From Escherichia phage vB_EcoS_VAH1, in sequence record MK373792.1: a stretch of DNA of 64,000 nt. One strand, written 5' to 3'. The notes beneath the pieces are model-generated. The model did not search any database. It had not been told where the DNA came from and saw only the letters and a program-made list of their open reading frames with translations. A program made the position numbers and the translations under genes. Below, in pieces: positions 20,943-34,029 of this stretch (positions are counted from its first letter, which is position 1; every line of letters begins with the position of its first letter).

Positions 20943-21018
20943 TGGAGCGGCTAGAGGGAATCGAACCCTACTCAGCGAGGCTTGGAAGGCCTGCGACACA
21001 ACCCGTGTGCTTAACCGC
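20943..21018 (-). tRNA. tRNA-Gly (anticodon TCC), tentative
   Basis: Acceptor GCGGTTA/TAGCCGC, T-loop TTCGATT, loop CTTCCAA. Confidence 0.5.
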
Positions 21019-21026
21019 TTATTGTT

Positions 21027-21110: not shown

Positions 21111-21186
21111 TGGCAGAAGGTAGTGGATTCGAACCACTGATCAGGATTTCAGAGACCCCAGCCTTAACCGACTTGGCTAACCTTCT
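21111..21186 (-). tRNA. tRNA-Gln (anticodon CTG), tentative
   Basis: Acceptor AGAAGGT/ACCTTCT, T-arm GTGG-TTCGAAT-CCAC, loop CTCTGAA. Confidence 0.45.
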
Positions 21187-21745
21187 TCTTAATACTTTTT
21201 GGATCTTTACCTGTTAAGGATTTATAGCGTTTACGTAGTCCGTTATCGGATAATCCTAACTCTTTTGATGCTTTAACCCATGAATAGTTTATTACCCAAT
21301 ATTCTATTTGCTCTGCTGTAATATCAGGGCTACTCTTTGGTTTACAATCAAAACAAGTTTTAGATGAAGAATTTATTTGTTTATTACAATTAGGGCATTT
21401 ATTACCGCCTATTGTATGCCCTCTTTCAACTGTAGTTTTTATTCTATGATCTTGCTTGGTCATGACTACTAGATTATCTAAGGAAAAATTCAATTTATTC
21501 CTATCTTTGTGATCCACTTCTAGCTCAGACTCTAGCGAAGGTAGATCTTTAAATACTCTAGCTAGTAATCTATGTAATACAATAGAGACATTCTTTCCCT
21601 GCTCATAGAATGTTACAAAAGGATACCCTGCACTACCTAAATGATGCGTAAGTAATTTATTACTCTTGGTAGAGTAAACTTCTCCATATGGAGAGATTAA
21701 GTATTCAGGGTATTCCGGAATTGCTTTGAAATTCTCTAATTTCAC
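21164..21745 (-). CDS. HNH homing endonuclease with C-terminal module shared with 28692..29375
   Basis: HRLLARVF...EVDHKDRNKLNFSLDNL HNH core; C-terminal ~45 aa near-identical to the 28692 ORF. Confidence 0.7.
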   Translation of the reverse strand: MKLENFKAIPEYPEYLISPYGEVYSTKSNKLLTHHLGSAGYPFVTFYEQGKNVSIVLHRLLARVFKDLPSLESELEVDHKDRNKLNFSLDNLVVMTKQDHRIKTTVERGHTIGGNKCPNCNKQINSSSKTCFDCKPKSSPDITAEQIEYWVINYSWVKASKELGLSDNGLRKRYKSLTGKDPKSIKKKVSQVG

Positions 21746-22201: not shown

Positions 22202-22278
22202 TGGGGTGGCTAGTGGAATTCGAATCCACATAGGCCTGATTCACAATCAGGATCATTAACCAATTATGATATAGCCAC
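22202..22278 (-). tRNA. tRNA-His (anticodon GTG)
   Basis: Acceptor GTGGCTA/TAGCCAC, T-arm GTGGA-TTCGAAT-TCCAC, arm CCTGA-TTGTGAA-TCAGG. Confidence 0.6.
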
Positions 22279-22515
22279 AATTGAAAACTCGCAGGGTTAG
22301 CGAAACCATCCTCAATTAGCATGTTCTATAATACTAATCAAGTTATCTCCTATTGCACGCAGCTCAAGACGAGTACGAATTTTCAATTGTGGCGGCTCTC
22401 AGAAACTCTTCTATTCTAGCCTCAGAAGCTTACCCCCGAACGCATGTCGGGAAAGTCTTTCCAAGCGCATCAAATAGCACCGTTACACTTTGAGCCATTG
22501 ATGTATCAAGGAATA

Positions 22516-22638
22516 GAAGGACTTGAACCTTCATGAGTTAGACCATATAACTCAACCGCTTTTAAGGTATATTTCTAGGAGTGAATGTTCCTAGTAAACC
22601 TATTCGGCAGTCCCGTCTACCAATTCCGGCATACTCCA
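22516..22638 (-). other. tRNA-Leu-like D-arm (GGAATTGGTAGAC) and T-arm (GAAGG-TTCAAGT-CCTTC) about 45 nt too far apart; disrupted or insert-containing tRNA
   Basis: Both motifs match E. coli tRNA-Leu but no acceptor pairing or normal anticodon arm could be built. Confidence 0.3.
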
Positions 22639-22645
22639 AGAATTT

Positions 22646-22819
22646 TTATAAACCAGCAGAAGCCTCATTTAAAGCATCAACAATAGCCTCACGCTGGGTC
22701 ATTCCATACCCGGTGGAGTCTAGGTGAGGCAAATAGGCTGCCCATCCATTATCTGTTTCATGAAGACATGCTTTAAATTTTTTACCATCCTTCATTGTTA
22801 CAGTAACTGTTTTGCTCAT
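22646..22819 (-). CDS. small protein (57 aa), possibly HicB/UPF0150-like; not in ORF track
   Basis: ATG with AAGGAAG RBS; MSKTVTVTMKDGKKFKACLHETDNGWAAYLPHLDSTGYGMTQREAIVDALNEASAGL. Confidence 0.35.
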   Translation of the reverse strand: MSKTVTVTMKDGKKFKACLHETDNGWAAYLPHLDSTGYGMTQREAIVDALNEASAGL

Positions 22820-23290: not shown

Positions 23291-23310
23291 TATTATTACC
23301 TCAAGTGTTT

Positions 23311-23400
23311 GGCGGAAGAGGAGAGATTTGAACTCTCAAGCCGTTTTACCAGTCAGCCACTTTCCAAGCGGTTTTCGTCGCCAATTCGATTTGCTCTTCC
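23311..23400 (-). tRNA. tRNA-Ser (anticodon GGA), type II, tentative
   Basis: Acceptor GGAAGAG/CTCTTCC, T-loop TTCAAAT, loop TTGGAAA. Confidence 0.45.
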
Positions 23401-23668: not shown

Positions 23669-23960
23669 AAATTCTTTAGTTTACTAAGGCTATTAGCTCG
23701 GCGTAACTATAGCACCTTCGCTTCGAGCGGAAGGAACTACGTCATCTCGCAAACCCAATACACTATTCAGTTGCCGCTGAATCTAGTGGACTAATCTAGA
23801 ACCTCTCCTAAATAGTAGGGATCGTGCTTTTTGGCAGCCAGTCCTAGGTCGAGCTAATACCTTAGTGAACTATGATGAGGATTTCTCCTCATCAATTTAT
23901 ATAAATATTATAACAAGAAATTAAGCATTAAGCAACTGCGTTTTTGAAATTTCTTGGACT

Positions 23961-27550: not shown

Positions 27551-27621
27551 TGGCAGGGGTAAAGGTATTCGAAACCTTTTCATGGGTTTTGGAGGCCCAT
27601 TTGCAACCTATGCGTACCCCA
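27551..27621 (-). tRNA. short tRNA-like element (~71 nt), identity unresolved
   Basis: T-arm AAGGT-TTCGAAT-ACCTT and CCA present; D and anticodon arms atypical. Confidence 0.3.
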
Positions 27622-28691: not shown

Positions 28692-29375
28692 TCATCTACT
28701 TTTCTTAATACTTTTAGGATCTTTCCCTGTTAGGGACTTATACCTTTTCCTTAATCCAGTATCAGATAATCCTAGTTCTTTGGAGGCACGAATCCAGGAA
28801 TATTTAGATACCCAGTACTCTATTTGCTCCACAGTAATATCTGGATTTATAGTTATCTCTTTAGGAGTACATGATTTACAGTGTGTTGCTCTTGAACTAA
28901 TTTCGCAGTGACAAATAGCACACGTATTTACAGCTCTTTCTGTATACCTGCCAATATTTTTGCCTGCATGAGTAGGTGTTAGTGCATGGCAATTTGGACA
29001 TAGGAGGGCTAAGTTATCCCATTCATTATTATAGTGATTTCCATCCTTGTGTTCGAGTTCTAAAGGAATTGGTTTGTCTAACCAACTTTCTAAGCCACAA
29101 CTCTCACACTTATGTGGTTTTAGCCCCTCGTTAAGAATTTTATTCTTTAGTTTATAGGAAGAAATAGGGCTGCCGTTATATAAATACTCTGTTGCAGACT
29201 TATATTTATTATCATACTGCCTATTCGCAGGAATAACTACTATTCCTAGTTTTCCTAAATATGCTTCCAAAGTGTTCGAGGAGCAGGATAGCATTCTTGC
29301 TATCTCTGCTTTAGATTTTCCCTGAGCTATCCACTGAGCTATTTCTTCCTTTCTATCTAGTATATCAGTTCTCAT
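28692..29375 (-). CDS. HNH homing endonuclease with N-terminal HTH and shared C-terminal module
   Basis: HKCESCG...LELEHKDGNHYNNEWDNLALLCPNCH; C-terminus near-identical to 21164..21745. Confidence 0.7.
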   Translation of the reverse strand: MRTDILDRKEEIAQWIAQGKSKAEIARMLSCSSNTLEAYLGKLGIVVIPANRQYDNKYKSATEYLYNGSPISSYKLKNKILNEGLKPHKCESCGLESWLDKPIPLELEHKDGNHYNNEWDNLALLCPNCHALTPTHAGKNIGRYTERAVNTCAICHCEISSRATHCKSCTPKEITINPDITVEQIEYWVSKYSWIRASKELGLSDTGLRKRYKSLTGKDPKSIKKSR

Positions 29376-29398
29376 AGTTTATGACTTTCTAATTAAGC

Positions 29399-29476
29399 TG
29401 GTGGCTCCCCGAGGATTCGAACCTACGTACCTTCCAGTTATGAGCTGGGTGCTCATACCATATGAGCTTGAGAACC
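29399..29476 (-). tRNA. tRNA-Met type (anticodon CAT); third CAT tRNA, could be the Ile2 (lysidine) species
   Basis: D-arm GCTC...GAGC, arm CCCAG-CTCATAA-CTGG, T-arm GTAGG-TTCGAAT-CCTCG. Confidence 0.55.
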
Positions 29477-29482
29477 AGAATT

Positions 29483-29571
29483 TGGCGGAAGAAGTGGGAA
29501 TCGAACCCACAAGGCTATATTTCAAACCGACAGATTAGCAATCTGCTGCAATACCGTTATGCTATTCTTCC
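29483..29571 (-). tRNA. tRNA-Ser (anticodon GCT), type II
   Basis: Perfect acceptor GGAAGAA/TTCTTCC, arm GCAGA-TTGCTAA-TCTGT, long variable arm. Confidence 0.6.
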
Positions 29572-29592
29572 GAATTTATAAGATATATTATA

Positions 29593-30162
29593 TTAGAAAT
29601 TTAGCTTCATGGCAAGAAAATTTTTCAAGTTTTCGGTAGACATCTCATCCACATCTATAGGAGAAACAAACCCATTTAATTGTCTAGCAAACTTTTCACC
29701 AGCAGGATCATTATCCCCAACAGCTACCAATTTAAAAGGTAGTAATTTCAATTGCTTTAACAATGCTTTTCCGGGGGAAGAACCCAACATTGCCAGGGCT
29801 GGATAACCAGCGTTATGTAACGCAACTGCCTTAAATACAGATTCAGCAATCAATACTACTTTTTCATCTCCATTGAGAGTTTCTAGTCCCCATACACACT
29901 GTGTAGTAGAATAAGTAAAATATCTAGCTTCAAGGGGGCACTTACCATGACCTTTTGGAGCAGAAGGATTATAAGTCTGATAGCCTCTCAACATCCCAGA
30001 GAAGTCATACAATGGGACTGTTAGCCATCCTTCCGGGCTTAACCAGCAATGATATTTATCTGTATCAAACCCTCTAGATAAGAGATGTTCTGTTAGTTCA
30101 TCAACAGTCATACTAGATTCCTCTCTCAAATTTATAAATATATTATACAGAGAATTTAGCAT
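29593..30162 (-). CDS. stand-alone Toprim-domain protein
   Basis: VVLIAESVFKAVALHNAGYPALAMLGS...KLVAVGDNDPAGEKFA matches DnaG-type Toprim; no zinc finger or helicase part. Confidence 0.5.
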   Translation of the reverse strand: MLNSLYNIFINLREESSMTVDELTEHLLSRGFDTDKYHCWLSPEGWLTVPLYDFSGMLRGYQTYNPSAPKGHGKCPLEARYFTYSTTQCVWGLETLNGDEKVVLIAESVFKAVALHNAGYPALAMLGSSPGKALLKQLKLLPFKLVAVGDNDPAGEKFARQLNGFVSPIDVDEMSTENLKNFLAMKLNF

Positions 30163-30280
30163 TCAAGCAATTGAATTTTTTAACTTTTTAGAGGAAAATC
30201 ACAGGATGCTTAAGGGTAGCAGGTAAGTGGTCAGGACCGAAATTTGTGACCCCACTAAAAATCTGGGGGCAATTTTTAAA

Positions 30281-30320
30281 GACCCCTTGACATTTTCGCT
30301 GGGGTAGTGTAAAGTATATG
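30281..30320 (+). promoter_or_regulatory. sigma70-like promoter for the plus-strand island
   Basis: TTGACA at ~30281, ~17-18 nt spacer, TGn + TAAAGT; AGGAGG RBS before ATG at 30368. Confidence 0.5.
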
Positions 30321-30367
30321 TTATGGATGAGTGATCAAAGAGACACACATTTTCTATATACTAGGAG

Positions 30368-31360
30368 GTGTCAAAAATGACAGAAGAAGTAGCTAAGAGT
30401 CCTGAGACCGTCGCTAGCGTTGCAGCAGAACTGCACCGTCACGAGGAATCAGATAAGAAAAAGTGGGAGAAGGTCAGAGCCTACGAAGAAAAACATCGTG
30501 AACACGATGATGAAGAAGATGACGATGAGCATTGTCATAAATATGGAAAACATAAAATGCAAGAACCAGTAAACGTATTTACTAGTGGCTTCCCTGGCCT
30601 ACTTGGTGGTTACCCAGCAAACGCAAGTGCTTTCGGTGGCGAAGGTATGGGACTATTCGGAGCTATCCTAATCGGTGCTCTATTAACAGGCGGGTTCGGT
30701 GGTTTCGGTGGATTCGGTGGACGTGGTGTAGTTGGTGATGGTACCGCAGTTGATGCAGTACTTCAGAACCAAGATACCGCTAGTATTCTAGCAGCTATTA
30801 ACACTACTCGTACAGAAGCTAACCAGGGTACTGGAGCTGTTTTAAGCGCAGTTAACAATGGTTTTAGCCAGACATCCCAAAACCAGAGCCGTGATACTCA
30901 GTCTGTACTAACTACGATCTATGGTACAGGTGCTAATCTGTCTAATCAGATCTGCCAGGAAACTCGCAACGTTATTCAGGGTCAGTTCGATCTTTCTCGC
31001 CAGATTGATCAATCTTTCGCAGCTAACCAGATAGCTCGTGCACAAGATAAGTTTGATTCTGCACAGATCGCTTTCCAGCAGACTTTACAAACTAATAACC
31101 AGTTTGCCGCTGTTCAGGCTCAGATGTGTGCTAACCAGAACTCTCTGGAACGTCAGATCGCTGAATGTTGCTGTGAACTTCAGACTGCGATCGCTGGTGT
31201 AACTACTGCGCGTATTCAGGATGAGTTAGATGCATGTCGCCTACGTGAAGCAATCGCTGCGGGTAACGGTGCTAACGGTCAGGTAATTAATCAAATCGCT
31301 GTAAGTCTTGGTGCTATCACTCAGACTCTGGCTGGTCTGCAGGCTAAACTGCCGGCTTAA
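30368..31360 (+). CDS. acidic/His-rich N-domain + glycine-zipper TM segment + Gln/Asn/Ala-rich helical C-domain protein; function unknown
   Basis: DDEEDDDEH; GLFGAILIGALLTGGFGGFGGFGG; Q/N/T-rich tail with CCC cluster; codon usage unlike neighbours. Confidence 0.55.
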   Translation: MSKMTEEVAKSPETVASVAAELHRHEESDKKKWEKVRAYEEKHREHDDEEDDDEHCHKYGKHKMQEPVNVFTSGFPGLLGGYPANASAFGGEGMGLFGAILIGALLTGGFGGFGGFGGRGVVGDGTAVDAVLQNQDTASILAAINTTRTEANQGTGAVLSAVNNGFSQTSQNQSRDTQSVLTTIYGTGANLSNQICQETRNVIQGQFDLSRQIDQSFAANQIARAQDKFDSAQIAFQQTLQTNNQFAAVQAQMCANQNSLERQIAECCCELQTAIAGVTTARIQDELDACRLREAIAAGNGANGQVINQIAVSLGAITQTLAGLQAKLPA

Positions 31361-31381
31361 TATTAAGGGGAGGAGCCCATT

Positions 31382-31798
31382 ATGAGTAAATATGGTTTTG
31401 TAAATAACGGACTTAATCAAAGTATGGGCTCCCAGCAGCCCATTCCGGGTCTGGATAACCCCTACTTACAACAATTGCAACAGCGTTTAGCAGAAGCGCA
31501 ACAGATGCAGCAACAACTCCAGCAAAACCCTGGAAGTGTGAGTCCTATGCAAATGATGCAGCAAATGAGCGGGCAGTCGCAAATGCCTCAACAAATGCAG
31601 CAACAGGTGCCGCAGCAGCAAGCTCAGCAGCAAACCCAACAACCGCAGGTTTCTGCGGAAGGACAGGCAGTACTAGCCCTTTTCGAAGACTTCGCAAAGA
31701 CAGAGGATGGTAAGCAGCTTGTATCACTTATGGGTAAGTTTAATAGCTTCTGCCAAAGCCAGGTTGCAAAAGCTCAAAATAGTGGTAATAACTCCTAA
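31382..31798 (+). CDS. Gln/Met-rich low-complexity (prion-like) protein
   Basis: QQLQQRLAEAQQMQQQLQQNP...MQMMQQMSGQSQMPQQMQQQVPQQQAQQQTQQ; GGAGG RBS. Confidence 0.5.
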   Translation: MSKYGFVNNGLNQSMGSQQPIPGLDNPYLQQLQQRLAEAQQMQQQLQQNPGSVSPMQMMQQMSGQSQMPQQMQQQVPQQQAQQQTQQPQVSAEGQAVLALFEDFAKTEDGKQLVSLMGKFNSFCQSQVAKAQNSGNNS

Positions 31799-31807
31799 GG
31801 AGGAATT

Positions 31808-32002
31808 ATGTGTTGCAGAAAATCTGTTTCGTGCTGCCCAATGCCTGTAGCACGTTGTTGCTCTCCAGCAATGTTTACGCAAATACCGGCGTTCAATCCG
31901 TTTGCCTTTAAGCCTACTCTTATCCTGCCCCCTAGAGTAGATTTTCAGTCAAGATTGGCCTCCCGTATGGGTGGTTGCTGTAATAAGAGTATATGGTTCT
32001 GA
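31808..32002 (+). CDS. small Cys-rich protein (CC pairs)
   Basis: MCCRKSVSCCPMPVARCCSP...GGCCNK; AGGAGG RBS. Confidence 0.35.
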   Translation: MCCRKSVSCCPMPVARCCSPAMFTQIPAFNPFAFKPTLILPPRVDFQSRLASRMGGCCNKSIWF

Positions 32003-32018
32003 AGAACCAAACAATAAA

Positions 32019-32053
32019 GCCCCTAAGTCTTTCGACTAGGGGCTTTTCTTTTA
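32019..32053 (+). terminator. rho-independent terminator closing the plus-strand island
   Basis: GCCCCTAAGTC...GACTAGGGGC hairpin followed by TTTTCTTTT. Confidence 0.6.
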
Positions 32054-32060
32054 TCTTAAA

Positions 32061-32097
32061 TACAGAAAAGCCCTGCGCTCTCCAGGAAACGCAGGGC
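32061..32097 (-). terminator. rho-independent terminator for the SPFH gene (convergent)
   Basis: GCCCTGCG...CGCAGGGC 8-bp stem with T-run on the minus strand. Confidence 0.6.
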
Positions 32098-32122
32098 TTA
32101 TTTCAGATGTTACATGCGGGTA

Positions 32123-33070
32123 TTATTTATTACGCATATCCATAATCATTTGGCCATCATAGCCAGTGCCAACCACAGTCTGCGGTACACCACCTTGGTA
32201 TTTCTGAGCACGAATCATTTCAACTTCCAGTTGCTTCCAGCGAATCATCTCAGGAGTAATGGTACGTTGCAACGCGGCGTTAGCTTCAGCTTCTTTCTTA
32301 GCTGCGTACAGTTTGGCATCTGCGTCACGCTCATTGGCAATAGCTTGGTTATTACGAGCTTCGCGATCTGCTTCTGCTTGTTTAACCTTCTGCTGTGCTT
32401 CTTGTTCAACACGAGCCAGTTCAGCTTTCGCAGCATTAACTTGCTCTTCACGAACTTTGGTATTCTGTACCTGTTCCATGATTACCGGTGGCAAAGTAAT
32501 ATCCTGAAGGAATACCTGCTTAACTGTATAACCATATGGGCGTGCATACTCTTCAACTTCCTGTTGAATTGCAGTTTGCAATTGAGCCTGAATTTTAGCA
32601 TCAAACAAATCTTGTGCTTTAGGTACAGACTTACCAAACTCACGAATAGTAGACAGTAATTTTTCAGTTACATATTTATCTAGTGCTTGATCCTGGGTGC
32701 CTGCGTTAATACGGTTAATCGGTGCCTTAGAACCATCAAATTGTAACATAACAGTCAGGTCAACAGTGGATTTAAACTTATCTTGGCTAGGAACCTGAAG
32801 TTTATCTAATTTTACAGCAATATCTTTTGTACTAAAAGTATCGAAAGATGCAAATGGGTTTACAAGATGGAAACCAGGTAATACTGGGTTAGGATCTACT
32901 TTACCTAGAAATGTTTGGGTTTTAACCGTACCATCAGAAACAATAGTATATGAATTAAAAGCTAGGATTAAACCTGCTAAACCAACTACAGCACCAATAC
33001 CCCAACGTTTAATAGTGCGAATTACTTTTTGCTCAGAAGTCAGTTCTTTCATATTTTTAGTATTAAACAT
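32123..33070 (-). CDS. SPFH/Band-7 (prohibitin/stomatin/HflKC-like) membrane protein
   Basis: N-terminal TM (WGIGAVVGLAGLILAF), SPFH-like core, long Ala/Glu/Gln coiled-coil tail. Confidence 0.7.
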   Translation of the reverse strand: MFNTKNMKELTSEQKVIRTIKRWGIGAVVGLAGLILAFNSYTIVSDGTVKTQTFLGKVDPNPVLPGFHLVNPFASFDTFSTKDIAVKLDKLQVPSQDKFKSTVDLTVMLQFDGSKAPINRINAGTQDQALDKYVTEKLLSTIREFGKSVPKAQDLFDAKIQAQLQTAIQQEVEEYARPYGYTVKQVFLQDITLPPVIMEQVQNTKVREEQVNAAKAELARVEQEAQQKVKQAEADREARNNQAIANERDADAKLYAAKKEAEANAALQRTITPEMIRWKQLEVEMIRAQKYQGGVPQTVVGTGYDGQMIMDMRNK

Positions 33071-33669: not shown

Positions 33670-33745
33670 GTTATCCAGTTCTTACCGACCGTAGGATTCG
33701 AACCTACATCTTCCACCAGTTACGGCTTGATAATACCAATTATAC
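33670..33745 (-). tRNA. tRNA-like element, identity unresolved
   Basis: T-arm GTAGG-TTCGAAT-CCTAC; acceptor GCCGTCC/GGTCGGT with one mismatch; no clean anticodon arm; no CCA. Confidence 0.3.
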
Positions 33746-34029
33746 TAGGACGGCAGTGTTACTACATAAGTGATTTCCACACCCCACTATCAGTAAATTA
33801 GAGAAGAGTTTAGGGGAGAGGTTTCAGACGCCTCATTTTACACGTTCTAGCCACTAACCGGGATTGCCGCCCCCTGTGTACTAGTTTTACAACTAACCCA
33901 CCGACTCTATTCAACGAATCTTAGTGCTCGACGCATCTTACATTAAGACAAGTTCAGCGTAATCGGCTCGCTGTTCCCTAATTTATGAATATATTATACA
34001 GAATTTAAAGGCATTTAGCAAATAAATTT

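What the first reader, a model, noticed from the sequence alone, without database searches (positions are those of the whole stretch)
22275..22640. 13-bp inverted repeat flanking ~90 bp next to tRNA-His, and split tRNA-Leu-like motifs
CCACAATTGAAAA (~22275-22287, overlapping the tRNA-His 5' end) and its exact reverse complement TTTTCAATTGTGG (~22379-22391) bracket ~90 nt. Downstream, a D-arm identical to E. coli tRNA-Leu (GGAATTGGTAGAC, ~22615) and a tRNA-Leu-type T-arm (GAAGG-TTCAAGT-CCTTC, 22516-22532) are ~45 nt too far apart for one tRNA and no acceptor stem pairs them. This could be a tRNA carrying an insertion, a recombined pseudo-tRNA, or a structured small RNA.
Basis: seen in the sequence. 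Interest (0 to 1): 0.55.

Follow-up and report, generated by a model that had tools for sequence, protein, structure and literature searches.

The report
Known T5 phage stable RNAs
The flagged stretch holds three small non-coding RNAs (RNA1, RNA I, RNA III) already annotated in phage T5 as stable RNAs of unknown function; new here are a leucine-tRNA-like fold for RNA1 and a conserved 20-base-pair helix around RNA III.

Summary
The window is a T5-like phage (Tequintavirus) tRNA gene region, with genes on the minus strand. The flagged 22275-22640 matches, at 93-99% identity and in the same gene order, three misc_RNA features in the GenBank records of T5 and BF23: RNAIII (22280-22385), RNAI (22390-22496) and RNA1 (22497-22640, "tRNA-like stable RNA with unknown functions").

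Its statement that no acceptor stem exists is wrong.

- **RNA1** folds as a class II, tRNA-Leu-type cloverleaf. A 6-bp acceptor stem (GGAGUA/UAUUCC) covaries. The D loop and T loop are identical to E. coli tRNA-Leu. A 47-nt structured insert replaces the anticodon loop, and no CCA is encoded.
- **The 13-nt inverted repeat** is the core of a 20-bp helix closing RNA III. It pairs RNA I's GCCA tail and a CAAU spacer with the first five bases of tRNA-His. Five unrelated cassettes occupy this slot in relatives, and all keep 20 bp.
- **Processing (inferred):** the annotated RNA III ends leave a 2-nt 3' overhang, which suggests RNase III excision.

A T5 mutant whose deletion spans the corresponding T5 coordinates is reported viable, so the RNAs look dispensable in the laboratory. 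The feature is already known; its function is not.

The parts
22497..22640 (-). RNA1, annotated in T5 as 'tRNA-like stable RNA with unknown functions' (144 nt).
   Evidence: It is 93-94% identical over all 144 nt to the misc_RNA rna1 of T5 NC_005859 / AY692264 and BF23 AJ604530, in the same position between the T5.063 homologue and RNA I.
22508..22638 (-). tRNA-Leu-type (class II) cloverleaf domain of RNA1: acceptor stem, U8-G9, D arm, anticodon-position stem, long variable arm and T arm.
   Evidence: On 32 distinct homologues, 94.8% of cells are paired and 12 of 36 pairs change on both sides. 0 of 500 shuffles reach that, and slid controls pair at 40-50%. Model R1, built from this alignment, aligns E. 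coli leuQ/leuV tRNA-Leu(CAG) in register at 46 bits.
22632..22637 (-). Acceptor stem, 5' strand: GGAGUA.
   Evidence: It pairs with 22510-22515. Pair types seen are GC/AU, AU/GC/UG, GC/AU/CG/GU, UG/UA/CG and AU/GC.
22510..22515 (-). Acceptor stem, 3' strand: UAUUCC, directly 3' of the T stem. It is followed by U and then GAUACAUCAAU, with no encoded CCA.
22613..22629 (-). D arm: CCG-GAAUUGGUAGA-CGG. The D loop is identical to E. coli tRNA-Leu(CAG).
22560..22606 (-). 47-nt structured insert in place of the 7-nt anticodon loop. It has an inner helix AGGU/ACCU and a distal hairpin CUAGGA-ACAUUCAC-UCCUAG (22575-22594), with a conserved 8-nt loop at 22581-22588.
   Evidence: It is closed by the stem ACUGC/GCGGU (22607-22611 with 22555-22559), which is 100% paired with two compensatory pairs. 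The distal stem has four pairs with changes on both sides, while its loop is nearly invariant.
22534..22554 (-). Long variable arm: UGAGUU-AUAUGGUCU-AACUCA.
   Evidence: 99.5% paired, with an AU to UA compensatory pair. It is also visible in the window versus T5 comparison.
22516..22532 (-). T arm: GAAGG-UUCAAGU-CCUUC.
   Evidence: The stem is invariant in 32 of 32 sequences. The loop is identical to E. coli tRNA-Leu(CAG).
22390..22496 (-). RNA I (107 nt): a rod-like hairpin closed by GGCUC/GAGCC, with a single-stranded 3' GCCA tail.
   Evidence: It is 97-99% identical to the misc_RNA rnaI of T5 and BF23. The consensus fold is compatible with all variation in 14 sequences, with one compensatory pair. 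A second interior variant of 100 nt in Epseptimavirus has the same ends and its own compensated hairpin.
22386..22389 (-). CAAU spacer between the CCA end of RNA I and the 5' end of RNA III. It forms base pairs 5-8 of the closing helix.
22280..22385 (-). RNA III (106 nt), T5-type cassette.
   Evidence: It is 99% identical to the misc_RNA rnaIII of T5 and BF23. The fold has z = -3.0.
22374..22393 (-). 5' arm of the 20-bp closing helix. It comprises RNA I's discriminator G and CCA, the CAAU spacer, and the first 12 nt of RNA III.
22274..22293 (-). 3' arm of the 20-bp closing helix. It comprises the last 14 nt of RNA III, U-1 and G1-C5 of tRNA-His.
   Evidence: In the 444-nt precursor the minimum-energy fold forms this helix instead of the tRNA-His acceptor stem.
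22202..22278 (-). tRNA-His(GUG), directly downstream of RNA III.
   Evidence: ARAGORN and Rfam at 59.9 bits. It is 100% identical to T5 tRNA-His.

Best explanation
The interval encodes three small non-coding RNAs on the minus strand. They lie inside a polycistronic early tRNA transcript of a T5-like phage, in the order RNA1, RNA I, RNA III, tRNA-His. They are the homologues of the stable RNAs annotated in T5 and BF23.

Shown here:
1. RNA1 has a tRNA-Leu-type class II cloverleaf. It keeps the acceptor stem, U8-G9, a D loop and T loop identical to host tRNA-Leu, and a long variable arm. Its anticodon loop is replaced by a conserved 47-nt two-helix extension, and it has no encoded CCA. It therefore cannot decode.
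2. RNA I is a rod-shaped hairpin that ends in a tRNA-like GCCA tail.
3. RNA III sits in a slot closed by a helix of 20 bp. That helix pairs RNA I's GCCA tail and the CAAU spacer with the end of RNA III and the first five bases of tRNA-His. The interior of the slot is exchangeable: five unrelated cassettes were found.

Inferred:
- The RNAs are excised by host tRNA and rRNA processing enzymes. RNase P would cut at the tRNA-like 5' ends of RNA I, tRNA-His and probably RNA1.
- RNase III would make a staggered cut in the 20-bp helix. This would free the tRNA-His 5' strand so its acceptor stem can form, and would leave CAAU on RNA I to be trimmed back to CCA. I put this step at about 0.5.

Function of the mature RNAs is unknown. 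My preferred guess, at about 0.15-0.2, is that RNA1 acts as a non-decoding tRNA-Leu mimic that binds or titrates a tRNA-recognising host or defence factor.
For: Identity:
- The match is full-length at 93-99% identity, in the same gene order, to the misc_RNA features rna1, rnaI and rnaIII of T5 and BF23.

RNA1 fold:
- 94.8% of cells are paired and 12 pairs carry compensatory changes; 0 of 500 shuffles reach that, and slid controls pair at 40-50%.
- Sugarlandvirus has a completely different acceptor sequence that still pairs.
- Model R1 aligns E. coli tRNA-Leu(CAG) in register at 46 bits, E about 1e-14.
- The D and T loops are identical to leuV.

Closing helix:
- It has 20 contiguous pairs in the window.
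- Across 8 distinct sequences from 5 cassette types, base pairs 1-20 are essentially always paired, 10 pairs change on both sides, and base pairs 21-24 are unpaired.
- L064 and L073 carry changes that repair mismatches seen in their relatives.
- Its G-U pairs are valid only on the minus-strand transcript.

RNase III inference:
- The annotated RNA III ends are a 5' U at 22385, paired with 22282, and a 3' U at 22280. That leaves a 2-nt 3' overhang.
- The annotated ends of RNA2H in its own long helix show the same geometry.
- The precursor's minimum-energy fold forms the 20-bp helix at the expense of the tRNA-His acceptor stem.

Transcription context:
- A 100% identical copy of the annotated T5 promoter P13b lies upstream at 23881-23955.
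- No ORF of 60 aa or more lies in the interval.
Against: - No transcript, RNA-end or cleavage data for this phage were available. The RNA ends come from GenBank annotations, and I could not check their experimental basis because the 1980s papers are not in the library.
- The 3' end of RNA III could be set by RNase P cutting tRNA-His, without any RNase III involvement.
- The homologues fall into only three or four clades, so the number of independent compensatory events is small.
- ViennaRNA's minimum-energy fold of RNA1 alone prefers an alternative terminal stem (-39.1 kcal/mol against -34.5 for the cloverleaf).
- Covariation support for RNA I is thin, with one compensatory pair.
- The T5 mutant T5-123 carries a deletion of 29191-32442 and is reported to be viable. 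Those coordinates include all three RNAs in NC_005859, if the paper uses the same numbering (PMC11464382, citing Glukhov et al. 2018). Any function is therefore dispensable in laboratory E. coli.
- Complements of the two conserved RNA1 loops occur in the window only at chance level.
Confidence: 0.8

Rival explanations
1. The three RNAs are functionless processing by-products. On this view they are structured spacers, one of them a decayed tRNA-Leu gene, that persist because stable folds and tRNA-like ends protect them and punctuate the polycistronic transcript.
For: A T5 mutant whose deletion spans the region is reported viable (PMC11464382). The RNA III slot holds five unrelated interiors, including a bare 28-nt hairpin, which suggests the interior matters little. 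TrudiRoth has lost part of RNA I, RNA III and tRNA-His. No function has been assigned in any record.
Against: RNA1 keeps every helix by compensatory change, and it keeps two loops nearly invariant (ACAUCCAC and AAAUGGUCU) out to Sugarlandvirus. A decaying pseudogene would not do this. RNA I keeps its ends and a compensated hairpin in two interior variants.
Confidence: 0.2
2. RNA1 is a real tRNA gene interrupted by an intron, and it is spliced to a decoding tRNA. The JLBYU43 record annotates it this way, as a 135-nt tRNA-Phe(aaa).
For: The JLBYU43 annotation. The tRNA body is intact. In two clades the 5' side of the insert begins CUAAA(G/A)G, which resembles an anticodon loop.
Against: - The would-be anticodon is not conserved: AAU preceded by G or C, not U33, in the T5 type, and AAA in the others.
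- The 47-nt insert is far shorter than known bacterial tRNA introns, which are self-splicing group I introns of about 200 nt or more (established knowledge).
- Rfam gave no intron hit even at E up to 10.
- The insert is itself under structural selection.
- No CCA is encoded.
- ARAGORN does not call a tRNA here.
Confidence: 0.03
3. The inverted repeat acts at the DNA level, for example as a recombination or endonuclease site bounding a mobile cassette or as a cruciform, or it is an intrinsic terminator. On this view it is not an RNA helix.
For: Both junctions contain the palindrome CAATTG. The slot exchanges cassettes, and HNH homing endonuclease genes are nearby. A weak terminator-like hit overlaps the 3' arm.
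Against: The helix contains G-U pairs, which would be A-C mismatches in DNA or on the other strand. These pairs covary (13 wobble cells). Helix length is held at 20 bp although the sequence of base pairs 10-20 differs between cassettes. The terminator-like hit has a 5-bp stem, and tRNA-His follows immediately and must be transcribed.
Confidence: 0.04
4. The interval encodes small proteins. Several phage records annotate 'hypothetical protein' CDS over RNA I and RNA III.
For: CDS calls in JLBYU43, Sepoy, STWB21, SuperGirl and PMBT27.
Against: The window has no ORF of 60 aa or more here; the longest are 25-48 aa in mixed frames. Relatives differ by cassette swaps and indels that destroy any common frame. 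Substitutions follow base-pairing, not codon, patterns.
Confidence: 0.02

Closest known systems
Bacteriophage T5 / BF23 stable RNAs RNA1, RNA I and RNA III (GenBank NC_005859 T5s03, T5s02, T5s01; AY692264; AJ604530)
   Same: Sequence is 93-99% identical over the full length. Order and neighbours match: T5.063 homologue, RNA1, RNA I, RNA III, tRNA-His. Strand matches.
   Different: Only point substitutions, several of them compensatory in stems. The records give no structure, processing route or function. The fold, the 20-bp helix and the cassette variation are worked out here.
E. coli tRNA-Leu(CAG) (leuQ/P/V), a class II tRNA
   Same: RNA1 shares U8-G9, the 3-bp D stem, the identical D loop GGAAUUGGUAGAC, the identical T loop UUCAAGU, a long variable arm, and an acceptor stem stacked on the T arm. 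Model R1 aligns the two in register at 46 bits.
   Different: RNA1 has no 7-nt anticodon loop; a 47-nt structured insert takes its place. It has no encoded CCA. The discriminator is U in T5-like phages, not the A73 that E. coli LeuRS requires (from my knowledge). Position 1-72 is a U-U mismatch. The Rfam tRNA model stays below its gathering score (24 against 29 bits, and on a sub-part that covariation rejects).
Phage T4 tRNA-cluster stable RNAs (species 1 / RNA C and species 2 / RNA D) and RNase III-assisted processing of the T4 tRNA precursor
   Same: From my knowledge, these are small stable RNAs of unknown function, co-transcribed with phage tRNAs and released by host processing enzymes. 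A role for RNase III in T4 tRNA synthesis is cited as McClain 1979 in PMC4810235.
   Different: No sequence relationship was tested or is expected. The T4 RNAs were not compared here.
RNase III processing stems, such as those flanking 16S and 23S rRNA and the phage T7 early sites
   Same: A double-stranded helix of about two turns (20 bp) brackets an RNA that is excised. The annotated ends are staggered with a 2-nt 3' overhang.
   Different: Cleavage was not demonstrated. Part of the helix is built from a tRNA's acceptor strand and another RNA's CCA tail. I know of no described RNase III site with that arrangement.
tmRNA and bacterial or phage Y-RNA-like YrlA tRNA mimics
   Same: They are non-decoding RNAs that keep a tRNA elbow (T arm plus D loop) and replace the anticodon arm with something larger.
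   Different: ARAGORN finds no tmRNA. There is no G3-U70 and no tag ORF. In YrlA the ends sit in the stem that replaces the anticodon arm (from my knowledge), whereas here they sit in the acceptor stem. There was no Rfam hit to either family at E up to 10.

Membership tests
T5/BF23 stable RNAs RNA1, RNA I, RNA III | Full-length sequence homology to the annotated misc_RNA features. | tested here: met
   RNA1 is 93-94% identical, RNA I 97-99% and RNA III 99%, each over its whole length.
T5/BF23 stable RNAs RNA1, RNA I, RNA III | Same genomic position and strand: between the T5.063 homologue and tRNA-His in the tRNA gene region. | tested here: met
T5/BF23 stable RNAs RNA1, RNA I, RNA III | Accumulation as discrete stable RNA species in infected cells. 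| not testable with these tools
   This rests on the GenBank notes ('stable RNA'). The original papers are not in the library.
Canonical tRNA (Rfam RF00005; ARAGORN) | Cloverleaf with acceptor, D, anticodon and T arms, scoring above the family threshold. | tested here: not met
   ARAGORN makes no call. The best Rfam tRNA hit is 24 bits against a gathering score of 29, on a sub-part (22508-22576) whose acceptor pairing is only 52.7% conserved.
Canonical tRNA (Rfam RF00005; ARAGORN) | A 7-nt anticodon loop with U33 and a conserved anticodon. | tested here: not met
   The loop is replaced by a 47-nt structured insert. The candidate anticodon triplet differs between clades and lacks U33 in the T5 type.
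Canonical tRNA (Rfam RF00005; ARAGORN) | A 3' NCCA end, which the window's ARAGORN-called tRNAs printed carry. | tested here: not met
   The acceptor 3' strand is followed by UGAUACAUCAAU.
Class II tRNA-Leu-type body (what RNA1 resembles) | Acceptor stem stacked on the T arm, U8, a 3-bp D stem, a D loop with G18-G19, a long variable arm, and a T loop UUCRANY. | tested here: met
   Covariation, in-register alignment to leuQ/leuV at 46 bits, and identical D and T loops.
Intron-containing bacterial tRNA (group I intron in the anticodon loop) | A self-splicing group I intron, about 200 nt or more with a P1-P9 core. | tested here: not met
   The insert is 47 nt. There was no Rfam intron hit at E up to 10.
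tmRNA | tRNA-Ala-like domain with G3-U70, plus a tag-peptide reading frame. | tested here: not met
   ARAGORN reports no tmRNA. Position 3-70 is G-C or A-U. There is no ORF in the insert.
RNase III substrate | A double-stranded helix of about 20 bp (two turns). | tested here: met
   20 contiguous pairs in the window. The length is conserved across 5 cassette types, and pairing stops at base pair 21.
RNase III substrate | Staggered cleavage that leaves 2-nt 3' overhangs. | tested here: inconclusive
   The annotated ends of RNA III, and of RNA2H, fit this geometry. The ends are taken from annotation, and the 3' end could equally come from RNase P.
RNase III substrate | Cleavage by RNase III in vivo or in vitro. 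| not testable with these tools
   This needs comparison of wild-type and rnc-deficient hosts, or purified enzyme.

The most novel reading that the evidence does not exclude
The RNA1 / RNA I / RNA III array could be a phage counter-defence or host-manipulation module.

RNA1 would be a tRNA-Leu mimic. LeuRS does not read the anticodon, so RNA1 might still be recognised by tRNA-binding enzymes. After trimming and CCA addition it might even be charged. It could then titrate or misdirect a tRNA-targeting host factor.

The 20-bp-clamped RNA III position would be a hypervariable slot into which T5-like phages swap different small RNAs. RNase III cleavage of the clamp would gate tRNA-His maturation.
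Probability: 0.12. Interest if true: 0.7.

Novelty: already known. Interest (0 to 1): 0.3.

Why it matters
The existence of these RNAs is not news. They are annotated in T5 and BF23 as stable RNAs of unknown function.

What this analysis adds is a set of concrete, testable structures:
- a covariation-supported tRNA-Leu-like fold for RNA1, with the anticodon loop replaced by a conserved two-helix extension;
- a length-conserved 20-bp helix that ties RNA I's CCA tail to the tRNA-His 5' strand and looks like an RNase III site;
- evidence that the RNA III position is an exchangeable cassette slot.

T5 tRNAs have been reported to neutralise tRNA-cleaving defences: PARIS (PMC11464382) and retron Eco7 (as cited in PMC10644984). 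A non-decoding tRNA mimic next to them is therefore a reasonable candidate for a related role.

There is also a practical point. Annotation pipelines mislabel these RNAs as 'tRNA-Phe(aaa)' or as hypothetical proteins in several T5-like genomes.

Tried and rejected
1. Rfam search of the interval at E up to 10. It gave only a sub-threshold tRNA hit on 22508-22576 (24 bits). The acceptor pairing it implies (AGAAAUA with UAUUCCU) is only 52.7% conserved and no better than shuffles, so I rejected it.

2. Alternative terminal stem of RNA1 (UUGGAGUAU with AUACAUCAA), which the minimum-energy fold favours. It is 73.6% paired across homologues, against 100% for five of the six core cloverleaf acceptor pairs and 30 of 32 for the sixth. 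I kept it only as a possible precursor conformation or 3' mini-hairpin.

3. Search for targets complementary to the two conserved RNA1 loops within the window. Occurrences were at chance level only.

4. Direct global alignment of an insert-less RNA1 to each window tRNA. The result was uninformative because of end-gap artefacts. I replaced it with the covariance-model comparison.

5. Metagenome pattern scan. 31 loci were returned, but only 9 were true RNA1 homologues, all close T5-like phages. No more distant family members were found.

6. Literature searches for the original T5 stable-RNA papers, or for any functional or RNA-sequencing study. Nothing relevant was in the library. Only the report of viable deletion mutants was recovered.

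7. Pfam scan of neighbouring small ORFs. It returned nothing except the HNH/NUMOD4 endonuclease.

8. The 9-nt complementarity between RNA I (22408-22416) and RNA1 (22511-22519). By my own rough estimate it is expected about 0.4 times by chance in this interval. Its one apparent covariation is explained by each RNA's own helix.

9. The extra ~112-nt module found after RNA1 in some relatives. It is not significantly structured (z = -0.68).
Full report
**What the window is.** ARAGORN finds 21 tRNA genes on the minus strand between 19.8 and 33.2 kb. The 671 bases around the finding match 432 phage records. Nearly all are T5-like Demerecviridae, at up to 97.6% identity, including T5 itself at 96.7-96.9% and BF23 at 96.4-96.6%. 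The window is therefore the tRNA gene region of a Tequintavirus, and the relevant strand is the minus strand.

**Checking the observation.**
- The 13-mer CCACAATTGAAAA is at 22275-22287. Matches with up to one mismatch are expected 0.14 times per window.
- The repeat extends to 18 nt at 94% complementarity.
- Read as RNA on the minus strand, it extends to 20 contiguous pairs including two G-U pairs. These run from 22393/22274 to 22374/22293, and position 21 is a C-C mismatch.
- The T-arm motif is at 22516-22532 and the D-arm motif at 22615-22627.
- The D loop and T loop are identical to E. coli K-12 leuV tRNA-Leu(CAG), which I fetched and aligned.

**What is annotated there.** Three GenBank records carry three misc_RNA features exactly under the finding: T5 NC_005859, T5 st0 AY692264 and BF23 AJ604530. 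In window coordinates they are:
- rnaIII, "stable RNA with unknown functions", 106 nt, at 22280-22385;
- rnaI, 107 nt, at 22390-22496;
- rna1, "tRNA-like stable RNA with unknown functions", 144 nt, at 22497-22640.

All are on the minus strand, between a 57-aa ORF (22646-22819, the T5.063 homologue) and tRNA-His. Identities to the window are 99% for RNA III, 97-99% for RNA I and 93-94% for RNA1. The finding is therefore an already annotated feature.

**RNA1 is a tRNA-Leu-type cloverleaf with a large insert in place of the anticodon loop.** I collected homologues from annotated phage records, IMG/VR and metagenomes and aligned 32 distinct sequences. They cover Tequintavirus, Epseptimavirus and Sugarlandvirus. 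The structure I derived by hand has these parts:
- acceptor stem GGAGUA/UAUUCC, preceded by a U-U mismatch;
- U8-G9;
- D stem CCG/CGG with loop GAAUUGGUAGA;
- a 5-bp stem in the anticodon position, ACUGC/GCGGU;
- inside that stem, a 47-nt extension made of an inner helix AGGU/ACCU and a distal hairpin CUAGGA-ACAUUCAC-UCCUAG;
- a long variable arm, GAGUU-AUAUGGUCU-AACUC;
- T arm GAAGG-UUCAAGU-CCUUC.

On the alignment, 94.8% of cells are paired and 12 of 36 pairs change on both sides. 0 of 500 shuffles reach the observed values, and sliding the 3' partners drops pairing to 40-50%. In Sugarlandvirus it is a completely different sequence (GAUGCCG/CGGGGUU) that still pairs.

Two competing readings do worse:
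- The terminal stem preferred by the minimum-energy fold is only 73.6% paired.
- The sub-threshold Rfam tRNA alignment, which uses the variable arm as an anticodon arm, is 52.7% paired and no better than shuffles.

A covariance model built from the alignment recovers full-length hits only in T5-like loci. It also aligns genuine class II tRNAs in register:
- E. coli leuQ and leuV at 46 bits, E about 1e-14;
- a metagenomic tRNA-Leu at 52 bits;
- the window's own tRNA-Leu(UAG) as its best true tRNA, at 24 bits.

RNA1 fails the tests for a working tRNA. It has no 7-nt anticodon loop, no conserved anticodon, no encoded CCA, no ARAGORN call, and an Rfam score below threshold. The two apical loops, ACAUCCAC and AAAUGGUCU, are nearly invariant while their stems covary. 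That pattern points to functional loops. I found no complementary targets above chance within the window.

**RNA I.** It folds as a rod-like hairpin closed by GGCUC/GAGCC, followed by a single-stranded GCCA, which resembles a tRNA 3' end. Variation in 14 distinct T5-type sequences is compatible with the fold but gives only one compensatory pair. Epseptimaviruses carry a 100-nt variant. Its first 20 and last 22 nt are the same, its interior differs, and its apical stem is itself compensated (CCUGG/CCAGG, UCUGG/CCAGA, CUUGG/CCAAG).

**The inverted repeat is a 20-bp clamp around an exchangeable slot.** The position between RNA I's CCA and tRNA-His holds at least five unrelated interiors in relatives:
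- the 106-nt T5 type;
- a 63-nt type (SuperGirl, RA40);
- a 121-nt type (Seafire, PMBT27);
- a 133-nt type (L021, C13);
- a bare 28-nt hairpin (L025).

All are bracketed by the same junctions: GCCA-CAAUUGA on the 5' side and UCAAU-UGUGGC on the 3' side. I aligned only the two 24-nt arms of 8 distinct sequences and found the following:
- Base pairs 1-20 are essentially always formed.
- 10 pairs change on both sides, and 0 of 500 shuffles reach the observed pairing.
- Pairing collapses at base pairs 21-24, which are 0-25% paired.

L064 and L073 carry substitutions that repair the single mismatches seen in their nearest relatives. Thirteen cells are G-U pairs, which would be A-C mismatches on the other strand or in DNA. 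Selection therefore acts on the minus-strand RNA.

The outer part of the helix is built from three pieces:
- RNA I's discriminator G and CCA tail;
- the 4-nt CAAU spacer;
- on the other side, U-1 and G1-C5 of tRNA-His.

In the 444-nt precursor, the minimum-energy fold forms this helix and leaves the tRNA-His acceptor stem unformed.

**How it probably works (inferred, not shown).** The RNAs lie in a polycistronic early transcript. A 100% identical copy of the annotated T5 promoter P13b is at 23881-23955. A weaker promoter-like site lies just upstream of tRNA-Ser, at 22966-22937.

The tRNA-like 5' ends of RNA I and tRNA-His, and probably of RNA1, are natural RNase P sites.

The annotated ends of RNA III fit RNase III. 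Its 5' end is U22385, which is base pair 9 and pairs with A22282. Its 3' end is U22280, which is base pair 7. That leaves a 2-nt 3' overhang inside a two-turn helix, with 12 bp remaining on the RNA III side. This is the geometry of an RNase III cut. The complementary product would be RNA I with a CAAU tail to be trimmed back to CCA, and tRNA-His with a one-base leader.

The fourth annotated T5 stable RNA, RNA2H, has its homologue at 23688-23859 in the window. It is also closed by a long helix, and its annotated ends are offset by two base pairs.

I rate the RNase III step at about 0.5. The ends come from annotation whose experimental basis I could not read, and RNase P alone could set the 3' end of RNA III. 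A role for RNase III in T4 tRNA synthesis is on record (McClain 1979, cited in PMC4810235).

**Function.** None is known.
- The T5 deletion mutant T5-123 (deletion of 29191-32442) spans the coordinates of all three RNAs in NC_005859 and is reported viable (PMC11464382, citing Glukhov et al. 2018). This assumes the paper uses the same numbering.
- TrudiRoth has a natural deletion reaching into RNA I.
- Any role is therefore accessory.
- RNA1's conservation with covariation out to Sugarlandvirus argues against pure junk.
- LeuRS does not use the anticodon (established knowledge). A tRNA-Leu body with a blocked anticodon arm could therefore still be handled by tRNA-binding enzymes.
- T5 tRNAs counter PARIS (PMC11464382) and retron Eco7 (as cited in PMC10644984). 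On that basis my preferred guess is a non-decoding tRNA mimic or decoy, at about 0.15-0.2.
- The main alternative, at about 0.2, is that these are tolerated processing spacers.

**Comparison with known systems and novelty.** This is a member of the T5/BF23 RNA1, RNA I and RNA III set, by sequence and synteny. RNA1 resembles tRNA-Leu but is not a tRNA: the anticodon loop, CCA and family-score tests all fail. It is also not an intron-containing tRNA, a tmRNA or a YrlA-type Y RNA. The clamp resembles RNase III processing stems.

Novelty is "already known". The structural detail, the 20-bp rule and the cassette slot may be new, but they are refinements of a known feature. Interest is modest at 0.3.

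Noticed in passing
window 23310-23400 (-): A tRNA-Ser(GGA)-like gene that both ARAGORN and the Rfam scan miss. It has acceptor GGAAGAG/CUCUUCC followed by GCCA, and an anticodon loop UUGGAAA. The RNA1 model hits it at 19 bits. Its first 47 nt are about 79% identical to T5 tRNA-Ser2(GGA), which T5's annotators note cannot be turned into a suppressor.
   Followed up: partly
window 29402-29476, 33683-33754, 20946-21019, 27554-27621 (all -): Further Rfam tRNA-clan hits that ARAGORN did not call, at 38.2, 35.5, 30.9 (tRNA-Sec model) and 23.1 bits. The hit at 20946-21019 lies where T5 has tRNA-Gly(UCC). These may be divergent or tRNA-like genes.
   Followed up: no
window 23688-23859 (-) and 23881-23955 (-): A homologue of the fourth T5 stable RNA, RNA2H, at 96% identity. 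It is closed by a long helix (about 25 bp in the minimum-energy fold) whose annotated ends are offset by two base pairs, as for RNA III. Just upstream is a 100% identical copy of the annotated T5 promoter P13b.
   Followed up: partly
window 22279 (-), upstream of tRNA-His 22202-22278: The phage tRNA-His has U, not G, at position -1 opposite C73. The T5 and BF23 records annotate the tRNA as 78 nt including that U. The G-1 identity element of bacterial tRNA-His is therefore not encoded.
   Followed up: no
window 21164-21745 (-) versus tRNA-Gln(ctg) 21111-21186: An HNH/NUMOD4 homing-endonuclease ORF of 193 aa overlaps the 5' part of a tRNA-Gln gene. T5 shows the same arrangement with hegD, where that tRNA is flagged as a pseudogene.
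   Followed up: no
L005 (JLBYU43) 838-972; L005-L007, L009 and L071 CDS calls: Public records mis-annotate these RNAs. RNA1 is called a 135-nt 'tRNA-Phe(aaa)' in JLBYU43. 'Hypothetical protein' CDS are called across RNA I and RNA III in JLBYU43, Sepoy, STWB21, SuperGirl and PMBT27.
   Followed up: partly
L005, L007, L010, L021, between RNA1 and RNA I (window equivalent 22497-22509): Some relatives carry an extra module of about 112 nt. It is inserted in the loop of the small UUGAUA...UUCAAU hairpin that follows RNA1, which makes this a second insertion slot. The L005 copy is not significantly structured (z = -0.68).
   Followed up: partly
L070 (TrudiRoth) 486-560: A natural deletion fuses the 3' part of RNA I to sequence next to tRNA-Thr. 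It removes the end of RNA I, RNA III and tRNA-His, so the array is recombination-prone and dispensable.
   Followed up: no
window 22408-22416 and 22511-22519: A perfect 9-nt complementarity between RNA I (GAAUAGAAG) and the T-stem/acceptor 3' strand of RNA1 (CUUCUAUUC). It is about chance level for the interval, and each side is already explained by its own helix.
   Followed up: partly
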